64,000 nucleotides of DNA, taken from the IMG/VR virus record IMGVR_UViG_3300036713_000599. The stretch is one strand, 5' to 3'. Shown here piece by piece: positions 4,133 to 64,000 of the stretch. The notes under the pieces were generated by a model, which saw only the letters and a program-made list of their open reading frames with translations, was not told the DNA's origin and did not search any database. Within the stretch, counting starts at the first letter, position 1, and every line of letters begins with the position of its first letter. A program made the translations under genes and the position numbers. The DNA is from a virus (taxonomy: Duplodnaviria > Caudoviricetes).

Positions 4133-6147
4133 TGATTCGCCTTCTCCGATCAGTCATCGACTTCGAAGATGGCAAGATAGACCAAGAGACTCTCTCAATT
4201 AATTTTCGACACTTGTTGGGATCGAGCATCCAATGGAACCGACCCGACGACGAACGACTCTTCAAGTTTATCAAGACGTATTTTGAGCACAATCTCCCCA
4301 ACCTGCCTTCAGCCCAGACGGTAGAGGACTACTTCAACAAATCCAACGATATTGAGACGATCGAGCGACTTAAGGATATCGAGGGGCAGCCTGTCTACAC
4401 AGACGCAAATTTCACATTCTTGCTCCGCCAGCTCTTAGACGAGCAAAACAAGATTCGGATGCTGAAATTGCTCAAGGATACCCAAGAGGTGGTGAGCAAA
4501 GGCCTGGAGGTCAAAGAGGGAAGGGAAACGAAGATCTATAAAGGGACGACAGAGGCCCACCTTTTCTACAATGCGAGGGCTGTTGACCTTTTACCCACCG
4601 TGTCTAACACACGGACGAGGGGCGACCTCCGCACTCTCACGGAGGAATCATGGGAAGAATACTTGGCTGCCGAGCACGATTCCAGCAAAGCCTACGGCAA
4701 GCTTACCGGGATCAATGATATCGATAAAGTTTGCAAAGGAATCAAAAAAGGAGAGATGTGGGTCCACGCCGGCTTTGCAGGCGAACTGAAGTCCAGTTAT
4801 TCCATGAACTGGTGCTATAACCTAGTCACGAGATACAGGACAAATGTCTTCTACGTGTCGCTAGAGATGCCGCTTGAACAGGTTCAGCGGATCATCCATG
4901 TGCTCCACTCGGCAAACGGCAAATTCGCGGCCCAAGGTAAGGAGCCTTTGGATTATCGGAAGGTAAGGGACGGGGAACTTTCTCCAGAAGAGAAAGAGTT
5001 CTACAAAGAGGTCCTCCACGATTTCGCCAACAACCCGAACTACACACGTTTCGAAATTTGGTGCCCTGATCGAGACGTCACTATCGACGATATTCGGATC
5101 GAAGCCGAGCTAATGCATCGGCAGATGGAGGTCGGGCTCCTGGTTATTGACCATGGTGGGTTGGTTGAAGCTCAACGCAGAAACTCGAACTACACGGTGG
5201 AGTTGAACACTGTTCTCCGGGGCAGCAAGAAACTGGCTTTGCACTTCAATGGAGGCGAAGGTGTCCCCTTGCTCATGCTCTTTCAGATCAACCGTGACGG
5301 TAAGGATCAGGCTGACAAGAATGACGGAGCCTACAAGATGAGAGCCCTTAGCTACGCAAATGAGTGTCTTGCGGAAGGCACTCTTGTGCGAACCTCCATG
5401 GGACTCATTCCTATCGAGAAAGTTGAGCCAGGTTACTTAGTCCACAGCAGTACGGGCTGGAAGACAGTATCGCACCGATTCAACCAAGGTGTCCGGAAAA
5501 CGGTTGCGGTGATAACCGATGGAGGTATTAGGGTCACGTGTACGCCCGACCACCGATTCCAGACGATTGGGGAGGACGGTTTAAAGTGGGTCGAAGCAAA
5601 AGATTTGAAAGGCCTGTACGCCTTAGCAGATATGCCTCACTACGACACCCTGTGGCCTATCGGTTCTCTTTATTCTCGATTGTGCGAAAAGTACAGAGTT
5701 CCTCGCCAAAACCTCATCACATCAAGTGCATTAGACTCTCTTCTTAGTTTCGATAACACTGGTTTGATGTTAGAAGAAGACCTTGCGTTACTTCGCAGGC
5801 TTCTCAGCTGCCACCCGCAGCAAGTGGTCGCTGTCAAAGAAGGCCCCGAAGTGCCTGTATTCGATCTGGAAGTCTCTGGTGACCACGAGTACTCTACAGG
5901 TGGACTTCTGACTCATAACTGCGAACGCAGTGCCGACGTAATAACGACCACCTACCTCAACGATCAGCACCGGCAGGCGGGCACAACCGTATGCTGTAAC
6001 CTGAAAAATCGGGACAACCCTCTATTCGAGAAAATGCTAATTGGAGTCGACTTCAAATGCCGTCGACTCAAGAATTACGACATCTCGCAAGTCGAGGGAC
6101 ATGGTATGGGCTGCGAAGACCCTGACGACGTGTTAGGGATGGTGTGA
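4132..6147 (+). CDS. dnaB: DnaB-like replicative helicase containing a mini-intein
   Basis: GIKKGEMWVHAGFAGELKS (Walker A variant), FYVSLEM, LLVIDH, LLMLFQINR, and ALSYANE/CERSADVI (equivalent to ESG/SIEQDAD). SD GGAGG 6 nt before ATG 4132. Confidence 0.88.
   Translation: MIRLLRSVIDFEDGKIDQETLSINFRHLLGSSIQWNRPDDERLFKFIKTYFEHNLPNLPSAQTVEDYFNKSNDIETIERLKDIEGQPVYTDANFTFLLRQLLDEQNKIRMLKLLKDTQEVVSKGLEVKEGRETKIYKGTTEAHLFYNARAVDLLPTVSNTRTRGDLRTLTEESWEEYLAAEHDSSKAYGKLTGINDIDKVCKGIKKGEMWVHAGFAGELKSSYSMNWCYNLVTRYRTNVFYVSLEMPLEQVQRIIHVLHSANGKFAAQGKEPLDYRKVRDGELSPEEKEFYKEVLHDFANNPNYTRFEIWCPDRDVTIDDIRIEAELMHRQMEVGLLVIDHGGLVEAQRRNSNYTVELNTVLRGSKKLALHFNGGEGVPLLMLFQINRDGKDQADKNDGAYKMRALSYANECLAEGTLVRTSMGLIPIEKVEPGYLVHSSTGWKTVSHRFNQGVRKTVAVITDGGIRVTCTPDHRFQTIGEDGLKWVEAKDLKGLYALADMPHYDTLWPIGSLYSRLCEKYRVPRQNLITSSALDSLLSFDNTGLMLEEDLALLRRLLSCHPQQVVAVKEGPEVPVFDLEVSGDHEYSTGGLLTHNCERSADVITTTYLNDQHRQAGTTVCCNLKNRDNPLFEKMLIGVDFKCRRLKNYDISQVEGHGMGCEDPDDVLGMV
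5365..5919 (+). mobile_element. Mini-intein (185 aa, no homing endonuclease) in DnaB
   Basis: Starts CLAEGTLVRT, block B TCTPDHRF, ends FDLEVSGDHEYSTGGLLTHN followed by Cys. Position matches the classic DnaB ESG/SIEQD intein site. Confidence 0.92.
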
Positions 6148-6975: not shown

Positions 6976-7397
6976 AACTCATAACACGGGAAAAGGGCGA
7001 ATTACACCTCCTATTGCTGACCGGATGGGAAGGGGAGTGGGCTATCTTGAGAGGAACCGTCTACGGTGACCTACTGAGCGTGATCAGTAGGGACGTTGTC
7101 GACCACGCTTTGCACGGATGGTCGCGCCCTCTCGTGGATGCTCTCGGGATCCCTCCCGATGGTGCTTTACGAAAAGTACCGGTAGCGGCTCGTTGGTGCT
7201 GGCTAAAACATAAACGTCCCCCGCATCTGCGGTCCTGCCCCCTACAAGGTCCTGAATGCCACCATGTGGCGAAGAAGATGCCTTGGTGCTTTGAGCCCAC
7301 GGAAGCGGATGACAGTATTCGTCGAATGGCTGCGAAAGCTATCGAGCAATGGAGGGAAGGGGTGTATGTGGTGGTAGTGGAGGAAGCCTATGACTGA
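6960..7397 (+). CDS. Hypothetical protein with Cys cluster
   Basis: 145-aa ORF overlapping the pol start. C..CPL..C..CF pattern. Confidence 0.65.
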   Translation: MSRSIKLITREKGELHLLLLTGWEGEWAILRGTVYGDLLSVISRDVVDHALHGWSRPLVDALGIPPDGALRKVPVAARWCWLKHKRPPHLRSCPLQGPECHHVAKKMPWCFEPTEADDSIRRMAAKAIEQWREGVYVVVVEEAYD

Positions 7398-10300
7398 TGA
7401 CATGAACGTGGAAGACGTTGACTTTGAAGAAATGTTCAAAGAACCTCCCAAGAAGCCGAAAGCTAAGGTGACCCCTGTCGGAGATATCGGGGGTGATATA
7501 GACGAATTTCTGGCGGATGTGAAGCCAGCAGACGAACAAGAAGCCAAAATGCTGACTAAGCCGTGGATGAAATTCCACGAGTTTATTTTGGTTAAAACCA
7601 TTGAGGAAGTCAAGGCTCTTGTCGATGCAGCCATTAAACACGGTCGGTGTTCCCTCGATCTGGAGACAGAAGGGCTCGATAATCGCATCGACTACGACGG
7701 GGAGGGTAGACCTTACACGCGACATAAGATCGTGGGCTACTGTATCTCAGTCAAAGGTGTGGGACATTATCTCCCCCTTAGGCACAAGTACGATAAAACG
7801 TACAAACAAGCAAACCCCAACCTTCCTATAGAAGAGACGGACGCCGAAATCAAACGATTGTGTCTGGCAGCTCAACCCGTGATTGCGGAGGATGCTCCGG
7901 ATCAGTACGCTTCTCCAAAATTTGAGAAGCCCCCGCAGCTAGTCATCTACTTCTGGCATGCGAAATTTGATCAAGAGTTTCTGTACCCTGTGACAGGAAT
8001 TCACTTTTGGCATCCCGATTCCTTTGAGGATGGGATGCTTTCGACTTACGTGCTCTATACAGACGACGTGCTCAGCCTCAAGGTGAACGCCAAAGAGAGG
8101 TTGAAAGTCCAGGACCCAGAGACGGGGGAAGTGCACCCCTACGAGATGATCGAATTCACGGAACTCTTTCAAAAGGGGACCCCCAAGAGGTTCGCCAATC
8201 TATACCCTCGGGACGGGACAGGGATGGTGCTGTATGCCTGCTCAGACGCTATCTGTACTGAGCTGTTGTGTGAAGCCAAGAAGGTCGTGTGGAAGCATAC
8301 AGTCGAGGGACTCAAGTACGAGTACAAGAGTCCTGTGGGCCCTTCTCATGGGCCGAAGTTTCGAGGTATCCTTCGGATCGAAAAACAGGCTGCCCAGGCT
8401 GTACGAGAAATGGAGCGTTCTCGTACACTTGTAGACAAAGATGCAATTGAAGACCTTCTTGAAGAGGCGTATAAAGAAAAGCAAGAATTTGAGGAAAAGT
8501 TGGTAATGGCCGCGAAGGCTAAGGGATTTGAGGGTTTTAATCCATCCTCCACTGCACAACTCTCCGACTTCCTCTTCACGAAGCGTGGTTTGGATCTGCC
8601 AGGCAAGCCTGAGAAAAATGAGGCAAGCGGACAATACAAGACAGACGCGAAGACGCTGGAGGCCATCTACGAAAACAATCAGGATATCGAGGTCCTTCGA
8701 TGGGTCGTAATGTACCGACAAATTGATAAAACCATCGGGACGTATCTCACCAAGCTCAGTCACAACACGGACGAGTTTAATCAACTCCGGTTCAACTTTC
8801 AGCAAACAGGGGCTGGGACAGGTAGATTCACCGCCCCTCAGGGTAAAGCAGAGGAAGGCTTCGCAGCCGTTCCGATCCACGGTATCCCTGCCAGATCGGA
8901 TCCGAAACGACCGAAGGTCGCTAATTCCCTTCGCCGACTGTTTGTCGCCCATGAAGGATACGTGATCGTCAAGGTCGACTATGCAGGCCAAGAGCTTCGT
9001 GTAGTTACCTGTATCACCAAAGAGCCTAAGTGGAGGAAGGAGTTCCTAGAGGGGACAGGAGACTTACATACCCTCACGGCCCAAGCATTTTTTGGAGACC
9101 ACATTACAAAGAATCACAAGAAAGAACGTACTTGTGGAAAAATCGCGAACTTCGCTCTAATATACGGGGGCGGGGTAGGGGCCGTCCAACGAGCGGTCGG
9201 TTGCGACAAGGTTGAGGCAGCTCGAAAGAAAGAAGCTTTCGACGCCAGCGTCCCGACCTTTTCCTCGTGGGTTAAAAGTCAGCACAGGCTCGTCAAGAAA
9301 AACAAGTATGTTACGACAGGGTTTGGTCGGTACATTTCTGTTCCTGACGCAAATATCAAAGCAGGGGAATACACAGCACGGACGAAGAAGCACCCTCCAA
9401 AGCTCGTGGACGAAAAGACGGCGAGAAAGATCAGGGCCTCTTGTGAGAGGCAGTCAACCAACTTTCCTGTGCAAGGTTGCAATTTTTATGCCAGTTTGGT
9501 GAATACTCGAAAAGGTTGGGTAAAAATAGGGGAATTGTGTGGTTCGGGCGAAACTTTCTCGGTTTGGACGGGCACAAGGTGGGCAGACGCTACAGCCCAT
9601 GACATGGGTGGGTGTGAGCTTGCCAATGTTTACTTAACGGATGGTACTACCGTTAGGTGCGACACTCGACACAAGCTTTTGGTGGTCTCGGACCAGGGTT
9701 ACGACTGGGTGGACTACCAGGACTTAGAACCAGGGATGGCGGTTGCGACCTCTCTCTGTGAACAGGTAGAGTACACTCCCCCGCCTTTACCTCTCATAGA
9801 ACACCGACCCAATACCAAGGACATGGAGTCTCTTTGGTACTGGTTAGGTAGGTATGTAGGCGACAGCTGGTTTAGCGTGTTTAGTGGGACTACCTTACAA
9901 TACTCATTTGGAGATCACGAGAAAGAAGCTATAGAGGCGTGTCGAACTTTCTGGGAGAAAGTGGGCGTTAGTGCTGACGTTGGATCGAATACACACACTC
10001 CCTGTCGAGAAATGTCCACTCGTTGCACAGTTACTGTTCAGAGTCGAGAACTGCACGACTGGCTTAAGTTGATTGGGCTGAAGGAAGGCGCCACAACGCA
10101 CACCAAACGGGCCCCGTCCAGGGTCTTCAGTGAGACACTAGCTAATCGAAAGGCGTTTCTTCGAGGAGTCGTGGATTCTGGTGGGCATGAGCCCAAGCTT
10201 CCGAAGAAAATCAATGGAGTACGGGAAACCAGTAAAAAAGGGAATCCTTACAACATCCATCTGTGCCAGCGTCCTTTGCTGGAAGATTTGAAGCTGCTGT

Positions 10301-11565
10301 TTCGATCAGTTGGCGTAGAATCCGTCATCAGAGACAGAAACGGTTGTAGTAAAGCTACAACCAATTATCGTCTTGACCCTAATCGTAGGATGTATGAACG
10401 GAACGTCATGGGAAGAAAAGACGTCCATGGTCCCAAATTCCACGACATGGACGCCCCTCAATTCCTTGTGGACGACTTCCTATCCCACGGCCCGTTCCCC
10501 AGAAAAGCTTTCCAAGGAGACGAGTCCGCTTACACACTCCACAAAAGACTTCAGGTAGGTGGGAAAGTCACAGTGTATGCGCTGAAGAGGCTTTGCACGT
10601 TACTTGATGTGGTTTTAAACCACCCTATCTACGGGTTCAAGCGTATCGTCTCCAAAGAGAATCTTGGCACGGTCGAACATACCTACACGTTGTCTGTGCA
10701 GGACCCTCTTCATCGTTTTGAAGCTGACGGAGTCATCACCAAGAACTCTGGAGCAGACATGCTAAAGATCAGCTTCGTTAAGCTGATCAAAGTATTCCAT
10801 CGTAAGGGGTGGTTACGGGATGGCGGTGACGATTCTGTTCGAATGATCATGACAGTCCACGACGAGATTGTCTTTGAAGTCCGCAAGGACCGTCTCATGG
10901 AGGCTATCCCAGAAATTACTAGGTGCATGGAGAGTCCGCCCCGCCTTCGCAAGTGGGACATCCCTTTCTATGTTGAGCCCCTCATTGGTGAAAGCTGGGA
11001 CGCAAAATACGACTGGGAAGACTTGATGGCGGGTAAGACGACGTACTTCCATAGCAAAGAAGAGCCTGATAAACCAGTTCCCCAATGGCTTCTCGATCTC
11101 ATCGAACCACAAGGGAAGGATTGGCGTCTACCTTTTGAAGACGACCTTCCCCCGCCAAAGAGCGATGAGTCGGTCGCCCCTGTCGTTAAAGATGGCGCTC
11201 TTGTCGCTCAGAAGCCGGCTCAGGAAGTGCTTAAGCCTTCTACGAGGGCACCGGCCCCTAAACCGGTGCCTCAGCCCCCTGAGGTGGCCGTAGAGGGGTC
11301 ACAACAGATGGCCGTGTTCGCTATCTCCAGCTCTCAACTCACTCGACAGTCCATTCGGATCGTGTCTCAGGTGATAAAAGGAGCCGAACCATTCGAAAAC
11401 GAAAAGGACTTGAGCGGATACAAGATTCTTCAGGTGGTTGATGAGACTGGTTACGTTCTGATTTCTGCCAAATGGAGGGTGTTAGTAGACCCTGACATTG
11501 TCGGTAGGGAATTTGCACTAAGGAACCTTGGACCGGGGAACTACGACATAGTGACTTTGACGTAG
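7390..11565 (+). CDS. polA: Family A DNA polymerase with 3'-5' exonuclease, an intein and a C-terminal extension
   Basis: Exo I SLDLETEGL, Exo II WHAKFDQ, motif A KVDYAGQELRV, motif B RTCGKIANFALIYG, motif C MTVHDEIVFEV, and NFPVQG/SGAD split by the intein. Confidence 0.93.
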   Translation: MTDDMNVEDVDFEEMFKEPPKKPKAKVTPVGDIGGDIDEFLADVKPADEQEAKMLTKPWMKFHEFILVKTIEEVKALVDAAIKHGRCSLDLETEGLDNRIDYDGEGRPYTRHKIVGYCISVKGVGHYLPLRHKYDKTYKQANPNLPIEETDAEIKRLCLAAQPVIAEDAPDQYASPKFEKPPQLVIYFWHAKFDQEFLYPVTGIHFWHPDSFEDGMLSTYVLYTDDVLSLKVNAKERLKVQDPETGEVHPYEMIEFTELFQKGTPKRFANLYPRDGTGMVLYACSDAICTELLCEAKKVVWKHTVEGLKYEYKSPVGPSHGPKFRGILRIEKQAAQAVREMERSRTLVDKDAIEDLLEEAYKEKQEFEEKLVMAAKAKGFEGFNPSSTAQLSDFLFTKRGLDLPGKPEKNEASGQYKTDAKTLEAIYENNQDIEVLRWVVMYRQIDKTIGTYLTKLSHNTDEFNQLRFNFQQTGAGTGRFTAPQGKAEEGFAAVPIHGIPARSDPKRPKVANSLRRLFVAHEGYVIVKVDYAGQELRVVTCITKEPKWRKEFLEGTGDLHTLTAQAFFGDHITKNHKKERTCGKIANFALIYGGGVGAVQRAVGCDKVEAARKKEAFDASVPTFSSWVKSQHRLVKKNKYVTTGFGRYISVPDANIKAGEYTARTKKHPPKLVDEKTARKIRASCERQSTNFPVQGCNFYASLVNTRKGWVKIGELCGSGETFSVWTGTRWADATAHDMGGCELANVYLTDGTTVRCDTRHKLLVVSDQGYDWVDYQDLEPGMAVATSLCEQVEYTPPPLPLIEHRPNTKDMESLWYWLGRYVGDSWFSVFSGTTLQYSFGDHEKEAIEACRTFWEKVGVSADVGSNTHTPCREMSTRCTVTVQSRELHDWLKLIGLKEGATTHTKRAPSRVFSETLANRKAFLRGVVDSGGHEPKLPKKINGVRETSKKGNPYNIHLCQRPLLEDLKLLFRSVGVESVIRDRNGCSKATTNYRLDPNRRMYERNVMGRKDVHGPKFHDMDAPQFLVDDFLSHGPFPRKAFQGDESAYTLHKRLQVGGKVTVYALKRLCTLLDVVLNHPIYGFKRIVSKENLGTVEHTYTLSVQDPLHRFEADGVITKNSGADMLKISFVKLIKVFHRKGWLRDGGDDSVRMIMTVHDEIVFEVRKDRLMEAIPEITRCMESPPRLRKWDIPFYVEPLIGESWDAKYDWEDLMAGKTTYFHSKEEPDKPVPQWLLDLIEPQGKDWRLPFEDDLPPPKSDESVAPVVKDGALVAQKPAQEVLKPSTRAPAPKPVPQPPEVAVEGSQQMAVFAISSSQLTRQSIRIVSQVIKGAEPFENEKDLSGYKILQVVDETGYVLISAKWRVLVDPDIVGREFALRNLGPGNYDIVTLT
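9478..10746 (+). mobile_element. Intein (423 aa) with LAGLIDADG-type endonuclease in PolA
   Basis: Inserted in QG|SGAD. Starts CNFYASLV, block B RCDTRHKLL, LAGLIDADG-like WLGRYVGDS and FLRGVVDSGG, ends FEADGVITKN before Ser. Confidence 0.9.
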
Positions 11566-11585
11566 TTTTTGATAGGACCTTCACA

Positions 11586-12134
11586 ATGGCTGAAAAACTC
11601 GATCATATGAAAGAATGCAATGAGTTTAAAGTTCCCGTTGAAGAATTTGAAACTCAATTTTGCTCACGTTGCCTCCAATCTGAATGCGGGCGGAGTCAGC
11701 ATGGTAAAAGCCAGTTCGATTCCAGGGTCCAGGATTGGGAGCGTCGCTTGTTCCTAGAGGTGCCCCGTATGAGTCCTGATGACACAAGGTTCCATAGCTT
11801 CCAGGCCAAGAAGTTTTTGGACATCCACGACCTGGGACCCGTAGAGGTCAGGGGCTGGGTCGACCCCAACAACCTCTCGGAGCCCGAGCCTGAAGAGGAC
11901 GAAGGCCCTCCAACGGATCCTTCTCCTCCTCCTTCGAACATGCAAGAGGAACCTGCCCAGGCTTTCTCTGACGGCCGTATGAATACGCCGGCTCAACCGA
12001 AAATGATGGTAGGTGGTCAAAAAGCTCCCACTAAGCCAACCAAACCGGTGTTAGATCAATGGGAACCCAAAAAGACAGAAACTAGCGGTATCAAAATGGT
12101 CCAACCTGGGGCCAAAATAAAGTTAGGATCATAG
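11586..12134 (+). CDS. Hypothetical protein (N-terminal CxxC cluster, Pro-rich tail)
   Basis: 182-aa ORF; C..FCSRCLQSEC motif. Confidence 0.65.
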   Translation: MAEKLDHMKECNEFKVPVEEFETQFCSRCLQSECGRSQHGKSQFDSRVQDWERRLFLEVPRMSPDDTRFHSFQAKKFLDIHDLGPVEVRGWVDPNNLSEPEPEEDEGPPTDPSPPPSNMQEEPAQAFSDGRMNTPAQPKMMVGGQKAPTKPTKPVLDQWEPKKTETSGIKMVQPGAKIKLGS

Positions 12135-12142
12135 GAGACGTT

Positions 12143-12334
12143 ATGAGCGGCGAACAAATGAAGTGGGAACACATCATCTATGAGGATGGTAGGGTCGTTA
12201 CAAATGTCCTGGAAAGACAGGACAGCGCACAATGTGGTCAGATCCGTCAAATCACCAATGGTATTGGTGATGAGCTGAGTGACGAACAAACTGGCCCTGA
12301 ATGCGACGAAGTGTTTGAAAGGACCGTCGGTTAG
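12143..12334 (+). CDS. DUF2997-like small protein
   Basis: IIYEDGRV..V.....C pattern recalled from DUF2997 (I..DG.V...V.G..G..C). Adjacent to DUF1257, as in the known gene cluster. Confidence 0.55.
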   Translation: MSGEQMKWEHIIYEDGRVVTNVLERQDSAQCGQIRQITNGIGDELSDEQTGPECDEVFERTVG

Positions 12335-12364
12335 TCTAGCCTGACTAGACGCGAAAGGACTACC

Positions 12365-12694
12365 ATGAGCCATCGGATCACAACACAAACGTCGATCAAA
12401 AACAAGAAGCTTGCCATTCAGGCACTGAAAACTGCGGGTATGGACTACTCCGAGCAGGGGGATCGTATTCGCGTCGTCAGTGGCGCTATGCGTGGGGCCG
12501 AGATCAACCTCAATACAGGTCGGATTACCGGTGATACCGACTATCATTCACAGAAGGAACTAGGTGCCCTGCGGAAGTACTATTCCGAGGCTCAAATTCG
12601 CGAACGATGTCTGATGGAAGGCCATACGGTTGAAGAGCGGCAAGAGCAGAGAGATGGCACGATTCGCCTCGTATGTGTGGGGACGTTTGCGTAG
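12365..12694 (+). CDS. DUF1257-family protein
   Basis: MSHRITTQTSIKNKKLAIQALKTAG N-terminus and YSEAQI..C..EGHTVEE C-terminus, typical of DUF1257. Confidence 0.7.
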   Translation: MSHRITTQTSIKNKKLAIQALKTAGMDYSEQGDRIRVVSGAMRGAEINLNTGRITGDTDYHSQKELGALRKYYSEAQIRERCLMEGHTVEERQEQRDGTIRLVCVGTFA

Positions 12695-12798
12695 ACGCGC
12701 AGGTTAACAAATCCGAGCGTGGGAGCCCCACCCACTTCAATTGGGTGGGGTTTGAGAGCAGCTAAGGCAAACCTAACTATTTCTAACCAATGCTTTTC

Positions 12799-12808
12799 GG
12801 CGTAGAGT
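12799..12808 (+). promoter_or_regulatory. Variant promoter motif GGCG-TAGAGT in front of tnpB
   Basis: TTTTCGGCGTAGAGT, 7 nt before ATG 12816. Confidence 0.45.
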
Positions 12809-12815
12809 CTAAGTG

Positions 12816-13937
12816 ATGAAGCTGATTCGATCCACCAAAGTCTCCTTGAAAGAGACAAATCCAAGAAAGCTAAAAATCCTGGAAGAAGTATTCCAGGAAT
12901 ACGGTCGGATTGTAAACCTCTTCATCGAACTATTCTGGGAAAATCCCGTCAAAAAGTCAAAGCTTCTAAAGCCAATCGTCGACTCGGTTCTCCCTACTTG
13001 GCTTTCCGCTCGGCTTCGAAAGGTTGCCGCCCGGGAAGCCCTTGATCTGGTCCTTTCGGCCAAAAGGTCCGCGAAAGCTCTCGGAAAAGAAGCCAAAAAG
13101 CCGATTCATAGAGGGAATCGAATGTGTGTTTCGAGCACCATCGCTTCCCTTGACTTGGCTGGAAAAGCTACATCCTATGATCGCTGGCTCCACCTTCATT
13201 CCATCGGGCATCATCCCGAATTTGGAAGAGTTATCCTAGATCTCCCGATCAAATTACACAAGCATTATAATGAGTTAGCTTCTATTGGAAGACGACAAGA
13301 ATCCTACATTCTAACCTCCCGTTACGTTCAGCTCAGCTTTGAAATCGTCACCGAGGAAAAGCTCCCTTCTGACCAATGTATCGGAATCGATAGTGGAATC
13401 AAGGCTTTAGCTTCGACTTCTACTCGACATCAATTCGGGAAAGACATAGAAAAAGGGATTGAACGGATAAAACGTTGTAAACACGGTTCAAAGGGGCAAA
13501 AGAGGGCTAGAAGGGCTCTTCGCCAGAGGATGAATGAGGTGGTGAAGGAACTCTTTGACACTCTGGAGCCTACTTTGATCGTGGTAGAAAAGCTTCGTTC
13601 CTTGAATAAAGGGACAAGAGTCAAACGCCGATTGACTAAAAACGTTCGGCGCTCTATCGGTAGCTGGACATATCGTTATTGGTTGGAAAGACTAGAAAGA
13701 GAGTGTGAAGTGAGACGTTCTCGCTTTCGCTCGGTTAATCCATATAAAACCAGTCAACGATGTTCGGTATGTGGTCATATCGATAGGAGAAATCGGCGAG
13801 GAGAGGTATTCAAATGTCGGAGTTGTGATCACACTGACAATGCGGACATAAATGCCGCTTTGAATATCTTGGATCGATTTCTTACCGGACCTTACGGTGC
13901 CGGTTGCAAACCTTTAACCTTGATTGGAGCTACATGA
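12816..13937 (+). CDS. tnpB: TnpB RNA-guided endonuclease (copy 1)
   Basis: RuvC-I IGIDSG, RuvC-II VVEKL, zinc finger CSVCGH..CRSC, RuvC-III NADINAA; the catalytic D/E/D residues are intact. Confidence 0.9.
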   Translation: MKLIRSTKVSLKETNPRKLKILEEVFQEYGRIVNLFIELFWENPVKKSKLLKPIVDSVLPTWLSARLRKVAAREALDLVLSAKRSAKALGKEAKKPIHRGNRMCVSSTIASLDLAGKATSYDRWLHLHSIGHHPEFGRVILDLPIKLHKHYNELASIGRRQESYILTSRYVQLSFEIVTEEKLPSDQCIGIDSGIKALASTSTRHQFGKDIEKGIERIKRCKHGSKGQKRARRALRQRMNEVVKELFDTLEPTLIVVEKLRSLNKGTRVKRRLTKNVRRSIGSWTYRYWLERLERECEVRRSRFRSVNPYKTSQRCSVCGHIDRRNRRGEVFKCRSCDHTDNADINAALNILDRFLTGPYGAGCKPLTLIGAT

Positions 13938-13958
13938 GTAGTTTTGAACAAGTTTGCA

Positions 13959-14123
13959 GGAACGGTTTTCGCGTCCTGGTAAACTACCCCTCCCTAAAGG
14001 GAGGGGCTTTGTGCCCCTCTGGTCCTAGAGAGAGTTGAGCGGGGCTCACGCCCCGCTGTTTCTGCTTCATCGGGCCCCCAACGGGGTAACCTCCACAGAC
14101 TGCTATACCGTGGTCTCCACGGC
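13959..14123 (-). ncRNA. Putative TnpB omega/reRNA (145-nt scaffold + flank-derived guide) carried by the MITE
   Basis: Minus strand has hairpins GCCGTGG..CCACGG, GCGGGGCGTGAGCCCCGC and CCCCTCCCTTTAGGGAGGGG, ending TAGTTTAC. TnpB reRNAs are known to derive from the tnpB 3' end/right end. Expression not shown. Confidence 0.55.
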
Positions 14124-14296
14124 AAGCGAATTTACCTGAAGTCCACAAGGCTCTCTGGGGGCAGCACTTCTGGTCACCAAGCTATTTAGCGGTTTCTTGC
14201 GGCGGGGCTCCTCTGGAAACGATCAAGAAATACGTTCAGAGTCAAAAGGGCGATTCCGCCCCGCCCTGAAGGACGGAGCCACCTCGCCCTCTTTCG
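13979..14296 (-). mobile_element. 318-bp non-autonomous derivative (MITE/PATE) of the IS605 at 59028-60766
   Basis: 13979-14123 reads identical to 59028-59172 (right end); 14119-14296 is near-identical to 60589-60766 (tnpA 3' part + left end). The two parts are joined at a 5-bp ACGGC microhomology. Confidence 0.95.
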
Positions 14297-14305
14297 GTGT
14301 ATAGT
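14296..14305 (+). promoter_or_regulatory. GGTG-TATAGT promoter motif at the MITE left-end junction
   Basis: Upstream of the AAA gene; the first G is supplied by the element end. Confidence 0.6.
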
Positions 14306-14339
14306 CCCATAAGATCGGATGGTGGCTCCTTGAGGCGGC

Positions 14340-15947
14340 ATGAAAGGAAAACGAATGAATCCTGAGATGATCTTCCACTTGAAGTCGATGACTCGTTTCA
14401 TCTACTACGTCACGGAAGAAGAAGACGTCTTCTTGGCGAAGTTGGACAAGGGGCTCAAGCAGTACAAGGATCACACTTTCGTTTTCAATTACGCCTTTGG
14501 ACTTGTCCCCTTAGAACGTCTCGTAGCTGATTGGAAGAATCATGCTCATCAGGAGAGTGATGCCGAGAGTCGGGATATCCAGAGTGCTCTTGTTCAGGTG
14601 TACCGGGCAGAGCCCAGGGAAAAACAGAACTTCTACATCTTCACGGACCCTGATCGGATGTTGGCTGATCCTATGGTTCAGCGCCGCTTCCTGAATATTG
14701 CCCACCAACTCCATCAGGACGATAAAATAGTCAAGATCATCATCTTTGTTGGACCTAGGCCGGTCATCCCCCCTAAACTTCAGCGCTATATCCAGGTCAT
14801 AAAAGATACGGGCTTAGAAGAAAAGGCTGTGATCAACCTCATAAAGAAGTTCTGCTGTGAGTTGAAAGATATAACGGTGCCAGAAAATCCAAAGGCACTA
14901 GCTGAACATTTTCGAGGTCTGACTCATTTCGAAGCAACATCAGTGCTGTCTCAGAGCATCATTCAGACCAAAGGGGACAAGAACAATCCCTGTAGGATTG
15001 ATCCTCGTATCATTTCGGAGTTTAAACAGTCGCAGCTCGCCAAGACGGACTTACTCAGCTTCGTCGACACTAAAGATACGACCTTTAAAGACGTCGGAGG
15101 CAACAACCGTTTCAAACAATGGGCTCTTAAGACGAGAGCCGCATGGACGCCAGAGGGTCGAAAATTTGGGTTATTCCCTCCTAAGGGGGTGCTGCTTATG
15201 GGGGTCTGGGGATGCGGGAAATCACTCAGCGTCAAGGCCATGGCCAGCGAGTGGCGTCTTCCTGTCGTATTGCTCGAAATGGGTAAACTTCGTAGTTCTG
15301 CCGTAGGTCAGACCGAGGCCAACGTGTATCGTGCCATTAACCTGATCGAGTCCATAGGTAGCTGCATGGTGTGGGTGGATGAAGCCGAAAAGAGCTTATC
15401 TGGCGGCCAGTCCAGTGCCATGAGCGACGCAGGAACAACTAGTAGGACGATCGGAATTTTATCCAACTGGCTCCAGGAGACAAAATCTCCCGTGTGTCTT
15501 GCCATGACGGCCAACAGTCTCAGTACGATGCCGATCGAATTTATCAATCGGATGGATGAACGGTTCTTTTTCGACTTACCGTCTGAAGATGAGAGGATCG
15601 CAATTCTCAAGATCCATCTTGCGAAACGAGGCCGCAACCCTGACGACTACCAGCTCGCTGTCCTCGCTGAGCACGCCAAAAATATGGTGGGTCGAGAAAT
15701 CGAACAGGCCATAGGGGCGGCTCTCGTAGACTCATTCATCGAAGGCAAGAACGACCTTGATGGAGAAATCCTTGTCAAACAATTGAAGACAAAACCTCGC
15801 ATCTTTAAGACAATGGCAGAGGAATTAGCCGAGGTTCTGGAGTGGGTGGGGTACGATGAAGACGTTGATGACGGTATTCGTGCCCGGTTCGCCTCCGCGT
15901 CTCATAGCCAGAATTTCACTAATTTCCACAAAACATCCGAGGAATAG
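14340..15947 (+). CDS. Ycf46-like AAA+ ATPase
   Basis: Degenerate N-terminal ATPase-like domain (YYVTEEEDVF), then DVGGNNRFKQW, PPKGVLLMGVWGCGKS (Walker A), VWVDEAEK (Walker B), AMTAN. Start could be ATG 14355. Confidence 0.85.
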   Translation: MKGKRMNPEMIFHLKSMTRFIYYVTEEEDVFLAKLDKGLKQYKDHTFVFNYAFGLVPLERLVADWKNHAHQESDAESRDIQSALVQVYRAEPREKQNFYIFTDPDRMLADPMVQRRFLNIAHQLHQDDKIVKIIIFVGPRPVIPPKLQRYIQVIKDTGLEEKAVINLIKKFCCELKDITVPENPKALAEHFRGLTHFEATSVLSQSIIQTKGDKNNPCRIDPRIISEFKQSQLAKTDLLSFVDTKDTTFKDVGGNNRFKQWALKTRAAWTPEGRKFGLFPPKGVLLMGVWGCGKSLSVKAMASEWRLPVVLLEMGKLRSSAVGQTEANVYRAINLIESIGSCMVWVDEAEKSLSGGQSSAMSDAGTTSRTIGILSNWLQETKSPVCLAMTANSLSTMPIEFINRMDERFFFDLPSEDERIAILKIHLAKRGRNPDDYQLAVLAEHAKNMVGREIEQAIGAALVDSFIEGKNDLDGEILVKQLKTKPRIFKTMAEELAEVLEWVGYDEDVDDGIRARFASASHSQNFTNFHKTSEE

Positions 15948-34279: not shown

Positions 34280-34289
34280 CTCCTACACC
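34280..34289 (-). promoter_or_regulatory. GGTG-TA promoter motif
   Basis: TACACC 34284-34289, 9 nt from the start codon at 34274. Confidence 0.5.
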
Positions 34290-34324
34290 GAAAGAGGGCG
34301 GCCCTTTAGGGACGGATAGTTTAC
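34289..34324 (+). mobile_element. 36-bp minimal IS605 derivative (left-end tip + hybrid hairpin + right-end tip)
   Basis: TACAC|CGAAAGAGGGCG-GCCCTTTAGGGACGGA-TAGTTTAC|CA matches both termini of the 59028-60766 element. Confidence 0.8.
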
Positions 34325-34352
34325 CAGAATTTATCTATTCAGCCGCCCTCAC

Positions 34353-47570: not shown

Positions 47571-47708
47571 ATGTCATCGGTCTCTCCGCCTTCGACTGAA
47601 CAAGCCACTGTTCTCGTCGAAACAGTGATGAGGTACACGGAATCTTTTAACCGAGTTTGTGAGGCCGGATGGGACGCCGAAAGAATCAACGGTCACCAAG
47701 CTATTTAG
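47571..47708 (+). pseudogene. Possible tnpB N-terminal fragment fused to the tnpA remnant
   Basis: PSTEQATVLVETVMRYTESFNRVCEAGW resembles an IS605 OrfB N-terminus (P..EQ..L.ET..Y..AFN.V...GW); it runs directly into the IS remnant. Confidence 0.4.
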
Positions 47709-47792
47709 CGGTTTCTTGCGGCGGGGCTCCTCTGGAAACGACCAAGAAGTACGTTCAGAGTCAGAGGGGCGATTCCACCCCGCCCTCCTTTG
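47691..47792 (-). mobile_element. IS605 remnant: tnpA 3' end + left end with deleted hairpin
   Basis: Near-identical to 60642 onward. The left-end hairpin was lost between two CGCCCT direct repeats; the remnant abuts GTGTA. Confidence 0.9.
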
Positions 47793-52000: not shown

Positions 52001-52018
52001 CTTTCTGTGCGTCGTCTG

Positions 52019-52058
52019 GTGAACCAGCCCTCCCTAAAGGGGGGCTTGTGTCTCTCTG
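52019..52058 (-). mobile_element. Degenerate IS605 right-end remnant
   Basis: GTGAACCAGCCCTCCCTAAAGG vs element GTAAACTACCCCTCCCTAAAGG (3 mismatches in 22); flanked by TG and GTGTA. Confidence 0.7.
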
Positions 52059-58780: not shown

Positions 58781-59077
58781 ATGAACAAATTCAGCACCAC
58801 CGAAGCATACCGCGAAGCGAAAGAACTACACAAGCAGGCGGAAGAGACCTTCAACAAAGCGAAAGACGCCTTGAAGGCGGCCCAGGATATCCTAGAAGAC
58901 GCTAAAACGGTCCGTGATGCAGCACACTCCGTTCAAGACATCGAGGACTACGAAGAGGCGTTATCGACGCTCTACGACCTTCTTGATTACTACGGCCTCG
59001 CTAAAGCCATTCTTGCCCACGATCGTGGTAAACTACCCCTCCCTAAAGGGAGGGGCTTTGTGCCCCTCTGGTCCTAG
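58781..59077 (+). CDS. Coiled-coil protein whose C-terminus is supplied by the IS right end
   Basis: SD GAGG/GGAAA before ATG 58781; the frame reads into the element after HDRG. Confidence 0.65.
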   Translation: MNKFSTTEAYREAKELHKQAEETFNKAKDALKAAQDILEDAKTVRDAAHSVQDIEDYEEALSTLYDLLDYYGLAKAILAHDRGKLPLPKGRGFVPLWS

Positions 59078-59172
59078 AGAGAGTTGAGCGGGGCTCACGC
59101 CCCGCTGTTTCTGCTTCATCGGGCCCCCAACGGGGTAACCTCCACAGACTGCTATACCGTGGTCTCCACGGC
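59008..59172 (-). ncRNA. Putative TnpB omega/reRNA with guide CACGATCGTGGGCAAGAATG
   Basis: Scaffold overlaps the tnpB 3' end and right end; guide inferred from the flank, as in ISDra2. Confidence 0.6.
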
Positions 59173-60295
59173 TGAGAATCACCTTGGCAGCATTGACGTC
59201 GGCGTTATCTGCATGGCCACAGGCCGTGCAGATAAACTCTGACTGTGAGATCCGTGACGCTGCGTCCACGGTCTCACAGCAACTACAGGTTTGCGATGTA
59301 TAGTGCGGAGGTACCTTGATCAAGGTACCTCCCGCCCAATCCAGCTTGTACTGGATCATCCACGCAAGAAGGCCCCATCCCGAGTTCAAGATACTGCGGT
59401 TGAGGCCAGCTTTCTGTCTTACATTCCGGCCAGGTAATTCAGATGTGCCGGACGCGGACTTCGTCATGTTCTTCACCTGGAGATCCTCGATCACCACTGT
59501 GCCGTGGCTTTTAGCGTAGTGGAGAGCGATCTGATGCAGCAGATGATTGCGTTGTCGCCGCACCTTTCGATGCAAGCGAGCTACTCTAAGTTGAGCCTTT
59601 CTGTGATTGTTTGAGCCTTTCTTTTTCTTTGACAGGGCTCGCTGAGCCCTGGTTAGTCTTTGCGTCGACGTCCTCATTCCCTCTGGACCGTCAAATACGT
59701 TCCTGTCTGAATCTGCAACGAGATGTTTGACTCCACGATCCAAACCTACTCTGCCGGGTTTGCGGAGCCGTTCCTCTATCTCGACTTCGCAGGAGATTGA
59801 AACGAACCATTGGTCTGCTTCGCGCACCAATGCACACGTTTTACCTTTACCTTCTAGTGGGCGGTGCATCTTGGTTTTTAGCACACCAAGTTTAGGGAAT
59901 CTCACATCTCCTTCTTCTGTGACCCGCCAGTACCTAGGGTGTGGCTCAATCAAAGAGACATTGTCTCTCCCCTTGCGCTTAAAGTGTGGAGGCTTTGAAA
60001 TTTTCTTAAAACCCCGCTCCCAAGCCTTAGCGAGTTCCTTCAGAAGTTGATCGAGGACATTTCGAGGAACATCTGCAAGCCACTCAAACTCAGGGTCCTT
60101 GAGAACTTCGGTCAGTTCCTTCATTTGGTCGAAGGCCGACAGGTACTCCTTAGGGACACGACTTAGGCCAGACCGTCTGTGCTCATGAGCACAGTTCCAC
60201 AGAAATCGTAAGGATCCTTCCCATCGAGCAAGCCGCTCGGCTTGCTCGGGCGTTGGGTAGACGCGGTAGCGAAAAGACTTGCGGACGATTCTCAT
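59033..60295 (-). CDS. tnpB: TnpB RNA-guided endonuclease (copy 2)
   Basis: FRYRVYPT N-terminus, VGLDRG, VIEDL, TSQTCSCC..ICTACG, NADVNAA; RuvC D/E/D intact. Confidence 0.95.
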   Translation of the reverse strand: MRIVRKSFRYRVYPTPEQAERLARWEGSLRFLWNCAHEHRRSGLSRVPKEYLSAFDQMKELTEVLKDPEFEWLADVPRNVLDQLLKELAKAWERGFKKISKPPHFKRKGRDNVSLIEPHPRYWRVTEEGDVRFPKLGVLKTKMHRPLEGKGKTCALVREADQWFVSISCEVEIEERLRKPGRVGLDRGVKHLVADSDRNVFDGPEGMRTSTQRLTRAQRALSKKKKGSNNHRKAQLRVARLHRKVRRQRNHLLHQIALHYAKSHGTVVIEDLQVKNMTKSASGTSELPGRNVRQKAGLNRSILNSGWGLLAWMIQYKLDWAGGTLIKVPPHYTSQTCSCCETVDAASRISQSEFICTACGHADNADVNAAKVILSRGDHGIAVCGGYPVGGPMKQKQRGVSPAQLSLGPEGHKAPPFREG

Positions 60296-60313
60296 CTCAC
60301 CTATAGTTGGTAT

Positions 60314-60739
60314 ATGACACAAAATGATTCATACCGCAAGGGGAGACATGTGGTTTTTGAGTTACACGTTCACTTGGTCTTCGTGCCAAAGTACCGTAGG
60401 GGCGTAATCACTCAGCGAGTCTACGACATCCTCCATGGGGCTTGGCAGAAAGTCTGTAAAGACTTCGAGGTTGTCTTGGAAGAGGCAAACTTCGAAGACG
60501 ACCATGTTCACCTCTTGGTCAACTATCCTCCAAAGGTCTCATTGTCGAAGCTTGTTAATTCGCTCAAGGGGGTGTCCGCTCGCCGAGTACGGCAAGCGAA
60601 TTTACCTGAAGTCCGCAAGGCTCTCTGGGGGCAGCACTTCTGGTCACCAAGCTATTTAGCGGTTTCTTGCGGCGGGGCTCCTCTGGAAACGATCAAGAAG
60701 TACGTTCAGAGTCAAAAGGGCGAGGTGGCCCCGCCCTGA
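60314..60739 (+). CDS. tnpA: IS200/IS605 Y1 (HUH) transposase
   Basis: HLVFVPKYRR, HUH DHVHLL, LKGVSAR, WSPSY..catalytic IKKYVQSQ. Confidence 0.95.
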   Translation: MTQNDSYRKGRHVVFELHVHLVFVPKYRRGVITQRVYDILHGAWQKVCKDFEVVLEEANFEDDHVHLLVNYPPKVSLSKLVNSLKGVSARRVRQANLPEVRKALWGQHFWSPSYLAVSCGGAPLETIKKYVQSQKGEVAPP

Positions 60740-60765
60740 AGGACGGAGCCACCTCGCCCTCTTTC

Positions 60766-61090: not shown

Positions 61091-61159
61091 GAAGCCTCGT
61101 TGAGACAGGGCAGTCCATTCTCTTCCGAACATACCCACACGAGGAATCGTAACACGAAC

Positions 61160-61717
61160 ATGACAAGTCCGATCAAAGCCTGGCACTTCATCTGTGACGA
61201 TTCAACGATCAAAACGTCCTCAATGAAAAGACCCTTAAAGGTTCATCAAGGGCAGATCTTAAGGCATCGAGGCCCTCTAGAACTTTGCAAAAAAGGACTT
61301 CACGCAAGTGTGAAGCCCCTTGACGCTCTCAATTATGCCCCAGGATCTGTGGTTTGTCGAGTTGAGTGTAGCGGTGAGGTGATCCGTGGTGACGGCAAAC
61401 TGGTCTGCTCCAGGAGGAAGGTTCTTTGGGCCAAAGATGCTTCAAGGGTTCTTCATGAATTTGCCATTTGGTGCGCAGAGAGAGCTTTAGAAAAAGTTGA
61501 AAATCCCGATCCGAGAAGTCTAGAAGCTCTCAAGGTCAAAAAGTTGTGGCTCGATGGGAAGGTCACTAATGAAGAACTAGAGGCTGCTAGGGAGGCTGCC
61601 AGGAATGCTGCCAGGGATGCTGCCAGGGAGGCTGCCGATGAGGCTGCCGATGAGGCTATCAGGGATGCCCAAAACGAAGAACTCGAAAGAAGACTCTTAG
61701 CTCTGCAGCCTCATTGA
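61160..61717 (+). CDS. Array paralog 1 (DUF7666-like N-domain + Imm5-like helical domain, AAxx repeats)
   Basis: KAWHF..LCKKGLHAS..PLDAL.YAPG..CRVECSG..KLVCSRR; LHEFAIWCAERAL..DPRS..LWLDG; 185 aa. Confidence 0.8.
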   Translation: MTSPIKAWHFICDDSTIKTSSMKRPLKVHQGQILRHRGPLELCKKGLHASVKPLDALNYAPGSVVCRVECSGEVIRGDGKLVCSRRKVLWAKDASRVLHEFAIWCAERALEKVENPDPRSLEALKVKKLWLDGKVTNEELEAAREAARNAARDAAREAADEAADEAIRDAQNEELERRLLALQPH

Positions 61718-61769
61718 AACCAGGTACCCAATTTGTTCCGAACCTTCTCACACGAGGAATCACAGCACA

Positions 61770-62363: not shown

Positions 62364-62418
62364 AACCAGGTACCCAATTTGTTCCGAACATACCCACACG
62401 AGGAATCGTAACACGAAC

Positions 62419-63081: not shown

Positions 63082-63146
63082 GAGGCTTCATTAAGACCAA
63101 GTACCCAATTTGTTCCGAACATACCCACACGAGGAATCGTAGTACG

Positions 63147-63800: not shown

Positions 63801-63852
63801 AACCAGGTACCCAATTTGTTCCGAACATGTCCACACAAGAAATCACAGCACA

Positions 63853-64000
63853 ATGACAAATCCAGTCAAAGCATGGCACTTCATCCGTGATGATTCAACG
63901 ATCAAAACGTCCTCAATGAAAAGACCCCTCAAGGTCCATCAAGGACAAATTCTGAGGCATCGAGGTCCTCTGGAACTTTGCAGAAAGGGTCTTCACGCAA
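63853..64000 (+). CDS. Array paralog 5, truncated by the window edge
   Basis: MTNPVKAWHFIRDDSTIKTSSMKRPLKVHQGQILRHRGPLELCRKGLHA, open at the edge. Confidence 0.8.
   Translation, partial: MTNPVKAWHFIRDDSTIKTSSMKRPLKVHQGQILRHRGPLELCRKGLHA

What the first reader, a model, noticed from the sequence alone, without database searches (positions are those of the whole stretch)
12694..13980. Second, unrelated tnpB-only element sits in a hairpin loop, tail-to-tail with the MITE, behind a phage-type promoter
Seen: GGTT at both junctions, and excision restores GACGCG-CAGGTTTT-CGCGTC. No transposase is present. The RuvC triad is intact, and tnpB is preceded by GGCG-TAGAGT, a variant of the phage promoter. 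Its inferred right end is 13 bp from the MITE right end, so the two predicted guides overlap in antisense; the first 15 nt of its guide (TTTTCGCGTCCTGGT) survive the MITE insertion. Known: IS607-family elements recombine at a GG core. Inference: an immobilised but expressed TnpB, possibly being domesticated. An IS605-like left-end hairpin at about 12726-12750 does not fit IS607 and may be a nested remnant.
Basis: partly seen in the sequence, partly recalled or inferred. Interest (0 to 1): 0.6.

Follow-up and report, generated by a model that had tools for sequence, protein, structure and literature searches.

The report
Transposase-less IS607 TnpB element in phage

Summary
The tnpB gene is real at 12816-13937 (373 aa). 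Its RuvC triad and zinc finger are intact. It is followed by a conserved guide-RNA scaffold at about 13787-13965.

**Right end, correct to within 2 bases.** All 58 distinct relatives end in AACGGT and then diverge. The window's copy is at 13961-13966.

44 of 95 related loci carry a serine-recombinase gene upstream on the same strand. None carries a Y1 transposase. The 64-kb window has no serine recombinase.

**Left end, wrong.** The family's left end reads (G)GGGT, 5-6 bases, ACAGTT. The window matches this at 12747-12763. Joining 12750 to 13966 rebuilds hairpin + TTTTCGCGTCC. This is collinear with the empty site of the closest related phage (GGGGC + TTTTTGCGTC).

- The hairpin at 12726-12750 is therefore the phage's own terminator.
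- GACGCG and CGCGTC are both native flank.
- The element is about 12751-13965, with GGTTT at both junctions.

**"Immobilised, being domesticated" is not supported.** Both ends are kept. A 94%-identical copy appears to lie on the same 282,752-base contig, and a 92% copy on another contig.

**Promoter.** The phage-type motif before tnpB is real as a pattern and lies inside the element.

The scan has noted such elements before, including one elsewhere in this genome. Verdict: new member of a known kind.

The parts
12365..12694 (+). Upstream phage gene (DUF1257 family), left flank of the insertion
   Evidence: Pfam PF06868. It is 81% identical in protein to the L001 homologue, and a homologue lies next to the AAA gene in all 15 related phages.
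12726..12750 (+). Native intrinsic-terminator hairpin of the DUF1257 gene. It is not part of the element. Its last GG (12749-12750) is the recombination core.
   Evidence: Inverted repeat I4, 12-nt arms, 92% complementary. It aligns with the L001 terminator, with a compensatory G-C to A-T change. All 15 related phages have a hairpin at this place.
12749..12753 (+). Left junction: GGTTT, shared with the right junction. The crossover cannot be placed more finely than this.
   Evidence: Sequence. The family left end (G)GGGT is seen in 15 relatives and in three independent insertions of one element.
12751..12815 (+). Left end of the element, 65 nt. It holds the GCAGCT box (12758-12763, the family's ACAGTT, an inverted repeat of the right end) and subterminal motifs at 12768-12787. 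No tnpA gene follows.
   Evidence: MAFFT puts it in register with the left ends of full-length relatives. By my count, 15 of 21 positions match L018 from GGGGT on. Spacing GGGGT-N6-box is as in L018, L046, L041 and L058.
12794..12809 (+). Phage-type start-linked motif variant TTTTCGGCGTAGAGT, 11 nt before the tnpB ATG, inside the element
   Evidence: GGTGTA-N9-11-ATG/GTG at 23 of 45 sites in the window. The same motif precedes the AAA gene in the related phages. Function was not tested.
12816..13937 (+). tnpB, 373 aa, RNA-guided nuclease with intact RuvC triad and zinc finger
   Evidence: Pfam PF07282 at 63 bits. NCBIfam guided_TnpB at 102.1 bits against a cut-off of 100. Alignment A1. 1072 homologues.
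13787..13965 (+). Guide-RNA (omega RNA) scaffold, overlapping the 3' end of tnpB and ending in AACGG
   Evidence: RNAalifold on 58 sequences gives 27 pairs, 20 with compensatory changes. The window keeps 27 of 27. MFE z-score is -4.2. No Rfam family matches.
13961..13966 (+). Right-end terminus AACGGT, with GG core at 13964-13965
   Evidence: Invariant in 58 distinct relatives, after which the sequences diverge. Pairwise blastn alignments between relatives end here.
13966..13985 (+). Predicted guide: 11 nt of native phage flank (13966-13976, the terminator's T-tract and GCGTCC), then 9 nt of the MITE
   Evidence: Position directly after the scaffold (inference from IS607 TnpB biology, 10.1101/2023.11.20.567912). 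The 20-mer is unique in the window. The native part matches L001 TTTTTGCGTC.
13977..14290 (-). Neighbouring IS200/IS605-type MITE, a deletion derivative of the full copy at about 59025-60764. Its tnpB-3'/guide-RNA end faces the IS607 element.
   Evidence: Repeat families D9-D11. Sequences. The full copy encodes Y1_Tnp and OrfB_IS605 TnpB. Sub-threshold RAGATH-18 match on the minus strand at 14059-14099.
14291..14354 (+). Native promoter-type motif CTTTCGGTGTA and leader of the AAA ATPase gene, right flank

Best explanation
**What it is.** A non-autonomous IS607-family insertion sequence of about 1215 bp (about 12751-13965). It has lost tnpA but keeps four things: a family-typical left end, tnpB, the guide-RNA scaffold and the right end AACGG.

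**Where it sits.** It integrated at a (G)GGG|T site, the preferred target of IS607 serine transposases. That site is the 3' foot of the intrinsic terminator of a huge phage's DUF1257 gene, between the stem and its T-tract. All related phages have only a 73-159 bp terminator-promoter spacer there.

**How it most likely works (inferred).** tnpB is transcribed from a phage-type start-linked motif inside the left end. The 3' part of that transcript becomes a guide RNA whose guide is the flanking sequence from 13966 on. TnpB with this RNA cuts genomes of co-infecting sibling phages that have the same site without the element (TAM about GGGG, then TTTTCGCGTCC...). Recombinational repair then copies the element in. 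Movement to new sites needs a serine transposase supplied in trans.

**Shown here:** gene integrity, conserved RNA structure, both ends, IS607 association, the empty site in relatives, and near-identical sibling copies.
**Inferred:** transcription, TAM, cleavage, homing and trans-mobilisation.
For: - Right end: AACGGT is invariant in 58 relatives, followed by divergence.
- Guide-RNA scaffold with covariation, fully kept in the window.
- IS607 link: a Resolvase + MerR-HTH gene upstream in 44 of 95 loci, no Y1 transposase.
- Left end: consensus (G)GGGT-N5-6-ACAGTT, an inverted repeat of the right end, in 15 relatives including three independent insertions of one element. The window matches at 12747-12763 and onward.
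- All 15 related phages have a short spacer with a terminator and GGTGTA.
- Intact nuclease.
- Siblings at 94% (listed with the same contig count and longest contig, 282,752 nt) and 92% identity.
- Target (G)GG and GG at the ends are known IS607 features (PMC6188088). The scaffold ending ...CGG, the G-rich TAM and homing are shown for CboIStron (10.1101/2023.11.20.567912).
Against: - The nearest empty site (L001) comes from a phage whose flanking proteins are only about 80% identical, so the non-coding match is short. It is about 9 of 11 nt after the hairpin.
- No near-identical empty allele was found.
- The DNA of the sibling copies could not be fetched, so the ends are not confirmed by a second copy of this same element.
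- The window's left-end box is GCAGCT, 4 of 6 against the consensus ACAGTT. A simple local alignment finds no significant inverted repeat between the left and right ends.
- No transposase was found that could move it.
- Expression, TAM and cleavage are untested.
- The GACGCG/CGCGTC complement next to GGTT has a chance probability of about 0.001 and is left as coincidence or as an outer helix of the native terminator.
Confidence: 0.8

Rival explanations
1. First reader's model. The element spans 12706-13967 and inserted at GGTT in the loop of a small hairpin GACGCG-CAGGTTTT-CGCGTC. The 12726-12750 hairpin belongs to the element or to a nested IS605 remnant. The element is immobilised and on its way to domestication.
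For: GGTT at both proposed junctions and a 6-bp complement restored on excision. The chance of GACGCG within 8 nt of GGTT in this 120-nt interval is about 0.001. GGTTAAC-like strings occur near some relatives' left ends.
Against: - The GGT(T)AAC strings in relatives turned out to be part of GGGT-N5-ACAGTT, or to lie inside tnpA.
- The window has no ACAGTT-type box 5-6 nt after 12704.
- Under this model the ancestral spacer would lack the strong terminator that all 15 relatives have.
- The 12726-12750 hairpin and the 11 nt after the right end align with the L001 terminator and T-tract.
- Sibling copies at 92-94% identity argue against long immobility.
Confidence: 0.08
2. No transposon left end at all. 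Everything up to 12815 (terminator plus GGCGTA motif) is native phage sequence. A tnpB-plus-guide-RNA cassette, perhaps with the MITE, was acquired by recombination between copies of the conserved phage promoter motif (12794-12809 and 14291-14306).
For: - The arrangement stop, 31 nt, hairpin, 48 nt, GGYGTA, 11 nt, ATG fits the family-wide intergenic architecture.
- The two motif copies share 13 of 15 positions.
- Among many relatives, homology starts only at the tnpB start codon.
Against: - 12747-12790 aligns with the left ends of full-length IS607 relatives: GGGGT, box and subterminal motifs, 15 of 21 against L018.
- The native sequence resumes at 13966 with the terminator's T-tract, as in L001. 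That places the left breakpoint at the hairpin foot, not at the promoter.
Confidence: 0.07
3. Same anatomy, but the element no longer behaves as a transposon. TnpB has been co-opted by the phage, for example as an RNA-guided weapon against competing phages or host DNA, and is expressed from the phage promoter class.
For: A phage-type motif lies directly before tnpB in place of tnpA. The nuclease is intact. The element is absent from 10 related phage records.
Against: - The guide is simply the flanking sequence, as in any transposon copy, and matches nothing else in the window.
- Both ends are retained.
- Several near-identical copies suggest selfish spread.
- There is no evidence of a reprogrammed guide.
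Confidence: 0.05

Closest known systems
IS607-family elements with TnpA(S) + TnpB, best characterised in the Clostridium botulinum IStron (CboIStron; Zedaveinyte et al., 10.1101/2023.11.20.567912)
   Same: - GG core dinucleotide at both ends and a G-rich target. Cbo uses TGGG; here it is (G)GGG followed by T.
- The scaffold ends in ...CGG directly before the guide.
- tnpB sits at the right end with the guide RNA overlapping its 3' end.
- Relatives carry a small serine recombinase with an N-terminal MerR-type HTH directly upstream.
   Different: - No tnpA and no group I intron.
- The TnpB is only distantly related: the NCBIfam IS607_TnpB model scores 28.6 bits against a cut-off of 350.
- The guide-RNA scaffold matches no Rfam family.
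- The left end carries a phage-type start-linked motif.
IS607 of Helicobacter pylori / IS1535 (Chen et al. 2018, PMC6188088; Boocock and Rice 2013, PMC4058570)
   Same: Insertion at (G)GG without target duplication. GG at the termini. Subterminal repeat motifs at the ends.
   Different: Those elements are autonomous. The paper describes the family as lacking terminal inverted repeats, whereas relatives of this clade show a clear inverted repeat (ACAGTT... against ...AACGGT).
IS200/IS605 TnpB elements (ISDra2, GstIS605; Meers et al., PMC10055086)
   Same: TnpB with a 3' guide RNA. Proposed homing into empty sites.
   Different: - The partner transposase is Y1/HUH.
- The ends are hairpins and the TAMs are T/A-rich.
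- The unrelated element next door (MITE 13977-14290, full copy at about 59025-60764) is of this kind. Its TnpB is 26% identical over 228 aligned residues (the C-terminal, RuvC-containing part).

Membership tests
TnpB (RNA-guided nuclease, OMEGA system) | RuvC catalytic triad D-E-D and a zinc-finger (TNB) domain | tested here: met
   D192, E258, D344 and C316/C319/C334/C337 are invariant in A1. PF07282 at 63 bits. NCBIfam guided_TnpB at 102.1 against a cut-off of 100.
TnpB (RNA-guided nuclease, OMEGA system) | Conserved structured RNA overlapping the 3' end of the gene and ending at the element boundary | tested here: met
   27 consensus pairs, 20 with compensatory changes, in 58 sequences. The window keeps 27 of 27. 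The structure ends at the invariant AACGG(T).
TnpB (RNA-guided nuclease, OMEGA system) | RNA-guided, TAM-dependent DNA cleavage | not testable with these tools
   Needs a TAM-library or plasmid-interference assay.
IS607 family | Serine-recombinase TnpA (N-terminal MerR-like HTH plus Resolvase catalytic domain) encoded upstream of tnpB | tested here: not met
   Absent from this copy and from the 64-kb window. Present upstream on the same strand in 44 of 95 loci of the same TnpB clade. This copy is therefore a tnpA-less derivative, not an autonomous member.
IS607 family | GG core dinucleotide at both junctions, (G)GG target, no target-site duplication | tested here: met
   GGTTT at 12749-12753 and at 13964-13968. 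Relatives read (G)GGGT at the left and AACGGT at the right. The feature is as published in PMC6188088.
IS607 family | Precise empty site in relatives equal to left flank + GG + right flank | tested here: inconclusive
   The empty site in L001 is collinear with the restored sequence, but the flanking proteins of that phage are only about 80% identical. No near-identical empty allele was found.
IS200/IS605 family | Y1 (HUH) TnpA partner and hairpin ends with a T/A-rich TAM | tested here: not met
   No Y1 transposase in any of the 95 related loci. The hairpin at 12726-12750 is the phage terminator. The right end has no terminal hairpin motif.

The most novel reading that the evidence does not exclude
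In this copy tnpA has been replaced by the huge phage's own leaderless-type GGTGTA promoter class, so TnpB follows the phage's transcription programme. The IS607 element and the adjacent, unrelated IS605 MITE lie tail-to-tail only 11 nt apart. Beyond that 11-nt native seed, each predicted guide reads into the other element's end. The two RNA-guided elements would then be coupled: each can home efficiently only into sibling-phage alleles that already carry its partner. That would make a linked pair of selfish nucleases acting in phage-phage competition.
Probability: 0.15. Interest if true: 0.6.

Novelty: new member of a known kind. Interest (0 to 1): 0.3.

Why it matters
Mostly as a correction. 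With family-level ends in hand, the element, its guide (from 13966) and its likely TAM (GGGG at the terminator foot) are now predicted, which makes it testable.

It adds a well-delimited example of tnpA-less IS607 TnpB elements spreading in huge phages, landing between a terminator stem and its T-tract. It also documents a large, mainly viral and archaeal TnpB clade. That clade has a conserved roughly 180-nt guide-RNA scaffold absent from Rfam, and clear end motifs: GGGGT-N6-ACAGTT on the left and AACGGT on the right.

The phage-type start motif inside the left end, and the reciprocal guide geometry with the neighbouring MITE, are modestly interesting leads for how such elements adapt to phage hosts.

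Tried and rejected
1. **Near-identical phage or empty allele.** Megablast of 11500-15500 against GenBank phages found no match. The exact 20-mer across the left flank had no hit in IMG/VR. A 20-mer conserved with L001 gave only a chance hit in JGI metagenomes, L111.
2. **Own genome.** None is held.
The DNA around P0001, P0121, P0122, P0002 and P0007 could not be fetched, and the sibling copies could be compared only as proteins.
4. **Close-relative scan of IMG/VR** with the single protein found nothing. The alignment-based scan worked.
5. **GGT(T)AAC as a left-end motif**. Rejected after the inverted-repeat analysis showed it was part of GGGT-N5-ACAGTT or lay inside tnpA.
6. **Local alignment of the window's upstream 140 nt against the reverse complement of the right end** was not significant. 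The left end was recognised only by comparison with relatives' left ends.
7. **Rfam** at gathering and at E-value thresholds gave nothing for this element. The only match was a sub-threshold RAGATH-18 hit in the MITE.
8. **tnpB of this clade in 10 related phage records:** none found.
9. **The 6-bp GACGCG/CGCGTC hairpin as the target.** Considered seriously and rejected (see rivals).
Full report
**Setting.** The window is part of a very large uncultured phage. Upstream lie a family-A DNA polymerase with an intein (7390-11565) and a DUF1257 gene (12365-12694). Downstream lies an AAA ATPase gene (from 14340/14355). No whole genome is held for it and no GenBank phage is close. IMG/VR holds 15 related phages that keep the DUF1257-AAA gene pair. 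The closest is L001, with the AAA protein 79% and the DUF1257 protein 81% identical. In all 15 the two genes are separated by only 73-159 bp, made of a terminator hairpin followed by a GGTGTA motif shortly before the AAA start. In the window the spacer is 1645 bp. It is filled by the tnpB element and by a MITE.

**The gene.** The ORF 12816-13937 (373 aa, starting MKLIRS like its homologues) matches Pfam PF07282. It matches NCBIfam guided_TnpB at 102.1 bits against a cut-off of 100. The narrow IS607_TnpB and IS200_TnpB models score far below their cut-offs. In an alignment with 25 homologues of 56-69% identity, the RuvC residues D192, E258 and D344 and the four zinc-finger cysteines are invariant. 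The family is large: 1072 hits. Scans found 75 loci in viral contigs and 20 in genomes, many of them archaeal MAGs.

**IS607 or IS605?** I took the ORFs next to tnpB in the related loci.
- A Pfam scan of 30 upstream ORFs found Resolvase in 13 and a MerR-type HTH in 4.
- A profile built from these found a serine recombinase upstream on the same strand in 44 of 95 loci. No Y1 transposase was found in any.
- The window has no serine recombinase anywhere. Its only transposase is the Y1 TnpA of the unrelated IS605-type element at 60314-60739.

**Right end and guide RNA.** In most of the 74 full-length loci, and in all 58 distinct sequences aligned, the sequence at or shortly after the tnpB stop reads (G)AACGGT. 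Similarity ends immediately after it, and pairwise blastn alignments between relatives stop at that base. In the window this is 13961-13966.

Upstream of it RNAalifold predicts 27 base pairs, 20 of which keep pairing through changes on both sides. One is a stem around an invariant TACGGT loop that has five different pair types at one position. The window sequence forms all 27 pairs, and the 180-nt stretch folds with z = -4.2. No Rfam family matches it. The scaffold is thus about 13787-13965.

By analogy with the C. botulinum IS607 element, whose scaffold ends ...UCGG and whose TAM is TGGG (10.1101/2023.11.20.567912), the guide starts at 13966.

**Left end.** For relatives that still have tnpA, I aligned the region upstream of tnpA with the reverse complement of the right end. 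Significant inverted repeats start at the very tip: ACAGTT... on the left against ...AACGGT on the right. They are preceded, 5-6 nt upstream, by (G)GGGT. Three independent insertions of one element (L046, L073, L063) have different flanks up to GGGT and are the same from there on. Four tnpA-less relatives (L086, L087, L091, L094) also show significant or near-significant left/right inverted repeats, and three of them (L087, L091, L094) clearly share this left-end architecture.

The window reads TGGGGT (12746-12751), TTGAGA, GCAGCT (12758-12763), AAGGCAAACCTAACTATTTCTA. MAFFT places this in register with the other left ends. By my count, from GGGGT on it matches L018 at 15 of 21 positions, and the subterminal AAAYCTAAC...TCTA motifs also correspond. 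My own earlier idea of a GGT(T)AAC motif turned out to be part of this larger consensus, or to lie inside tnpA.

**Independent support from the empty site.** Joining 12750 to 13966 gives the hairpin 12726-12750 followed by TTTTCGCGTCC. L001 has, at the same distance from the DUF1257 stop, a similar hairpin with a compensatory G-C to A-T change, followed by TTTTTGCGTC. With both insertions removed, the restored spacer aligns end to end with L001: 96 identical columns and score 58.

It follows that:
- the element landed between its stem (ending GGGG) and its T-tract;
- GACGCG (12694-12699) and CGCGTC (13970-13975) are both native flank.

Their complementarity next to GGTT is improbable, about 0.001. 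I leave it as coincidence or as an outer helix around the terminator.

The junctions share GGTTT (12749-12753 and 13964-13968). The element is about 12751-13965, or 1215 bp. A (G)GG target with GG at both termini and no duplication is the published IS607 signature (PMC6188088). My confidence in these boundaries is about 0.8.

**Mobility.** The 90% cluster of this TnpB has two further members. P0121 is 94% identical and is listed, like P0001, with two contigs of which the longest is 282,752 nt, so it appears to lie on the same contig. P0122 is 92% identical, on a 9.7-kb ENA contig. That fits P0121 and the size I derive.

The clade is absent from 10 related phage records. With both ends intact and near-identical copies at other sites, 'immobilised and being domesticated' is not the best reading. 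It is a non-autonomous element that needs a transposase in trans, and it may also spread by TnpB-driven homing. That mechanism is shown for IS605 and IS607 elements in E. coli (PMC10055086; 10.1101/2023.11.20.567912) and is inferred here.

**Promoter claim.** GGTGTA occurs 45 times in the window. 23 copies are followed by ATG or GTG after 9-11 nt, mostly 10, and most of these open long ORFs. Five one-mismatch control hexamers give 0-1 of 15-26. The motif often extends to CYTTYGGTGTA(G/A)AG and precedes the AAA gene in the related phages. Before tnpB stands TTTTCGGCGTAGAGT, then 11 nt, then ATG. This is a one-base variant with one extra spacer base, and it is the only GGCGTA copy that opens a long ORF. 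With the corrected boundary it lies inside the element, where relatives have tnpA. The pattern is real. Whether it is a promoter, and whether it works here, was not tested.

**Neighbour.** The MITE (13977-14290) is a deletion derivative of the complete IS200/IS605 element at about 59025-60764 (Y1 TnpA plus OrfB_IS605-type TnpB on the minus strand). The two TnpBs share 26% identity over 228 aligned residues, the C-terminal part that contains RuvC. The MITE's tnpB-3' end faces the IS607 element, so the arrangement is tail-to-tail, and 11 nt of native sequence (13966-13976) lie between them. TGGT is common to three copies of the IS605 end, so it belongs to the MITE (D11). The predicted 20-nt guide is unique in the window. 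Beyond 11 nt it reads into the MITE, and the MITE's predicted guide reads into the IS607 right end. The order of the two insertions cannot be told.

**Verdict.** An ordinary, well-delimited, tnpA-less IS607-type TnpB element. The left end, target structure and 'domestication' are not supported.

Noticed in passing
window 13977-14290, 59025-60764, 34284-34327 (-), 47691-47786, 52016-52058: Copies and remnants of one IS200/IS605 element all end next to the phage's CYTTYGGTGTA start-linked motif. They are the full copy with Y1 TnpA and TnpB, a 314-bp MITE, a roughly 44-bp fusion of the two ends, and partial ends. The element seems to dock on that motif.
   Followed up: partly
window 14059-14099 (-): Sub-threshold match to Rfam RAGATH-18 (24.4 bits, gathering score 44.9) in the MITE's guide-RNA end. 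It suggests that the IS605-type element uses a RAGATH-18-like scaffold.
   Followed up: no
window-wide; L001-L015 at about 4900-5000: GGTGTA 9-11 nt before start codons at 23 of 45 sites, usually without a Shine-Dalgarno sequence. The same motif is conserved before the AAA ATPase gene across 15 related huge phages. This is a family-wide leaderless-type expression signal.
   Followed up: partly
L016, L017, L037, L045: about 120 nt upstream of tnpB at 2501 (290 in L017): Several tnpA-less relatives carry a roughly 40-codon ORF resembling a ribbon-helix-helix protein (by eye, not scanned against any family library; for example ...LKAEAEKKGISIAEFVRRILDRE) that ends at the tnpB start. It is a possible small regulator that replaced tnpA.
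   Followed up: no
L057 1702-2490, L058 2159-2489, L046 1806-2453: In some full-length relatives tnpA and tnpB are separated by unrelated inserts or extra ORFs of 0.3-0.8 kb. The two flanking blocks stay 88-92% identical between elements. This may be cargo between the two genes.
   Followed up: no
L016-L035: This TnpB clade is found in viral contigs and also in archaeal MAGs (Thermoplasmata, Altiarchaeales, Promethearchaeota, Methanomassiliicoccales) with the same AACGGT right end.
   Followed up: no
window 7390-11565: The family-A DNA polymerase gene carries an intein with a LAGLIDADG homing-endonuclease domain.
   Followed up: no
window 61098-64000: Four tandem paralogous units of about 610-730 bp, each with an internal run of 12-nt repeats (repeat families D1-D6). 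They are a tandem array of small genes with repeat-rich tails.
   Followed up: no
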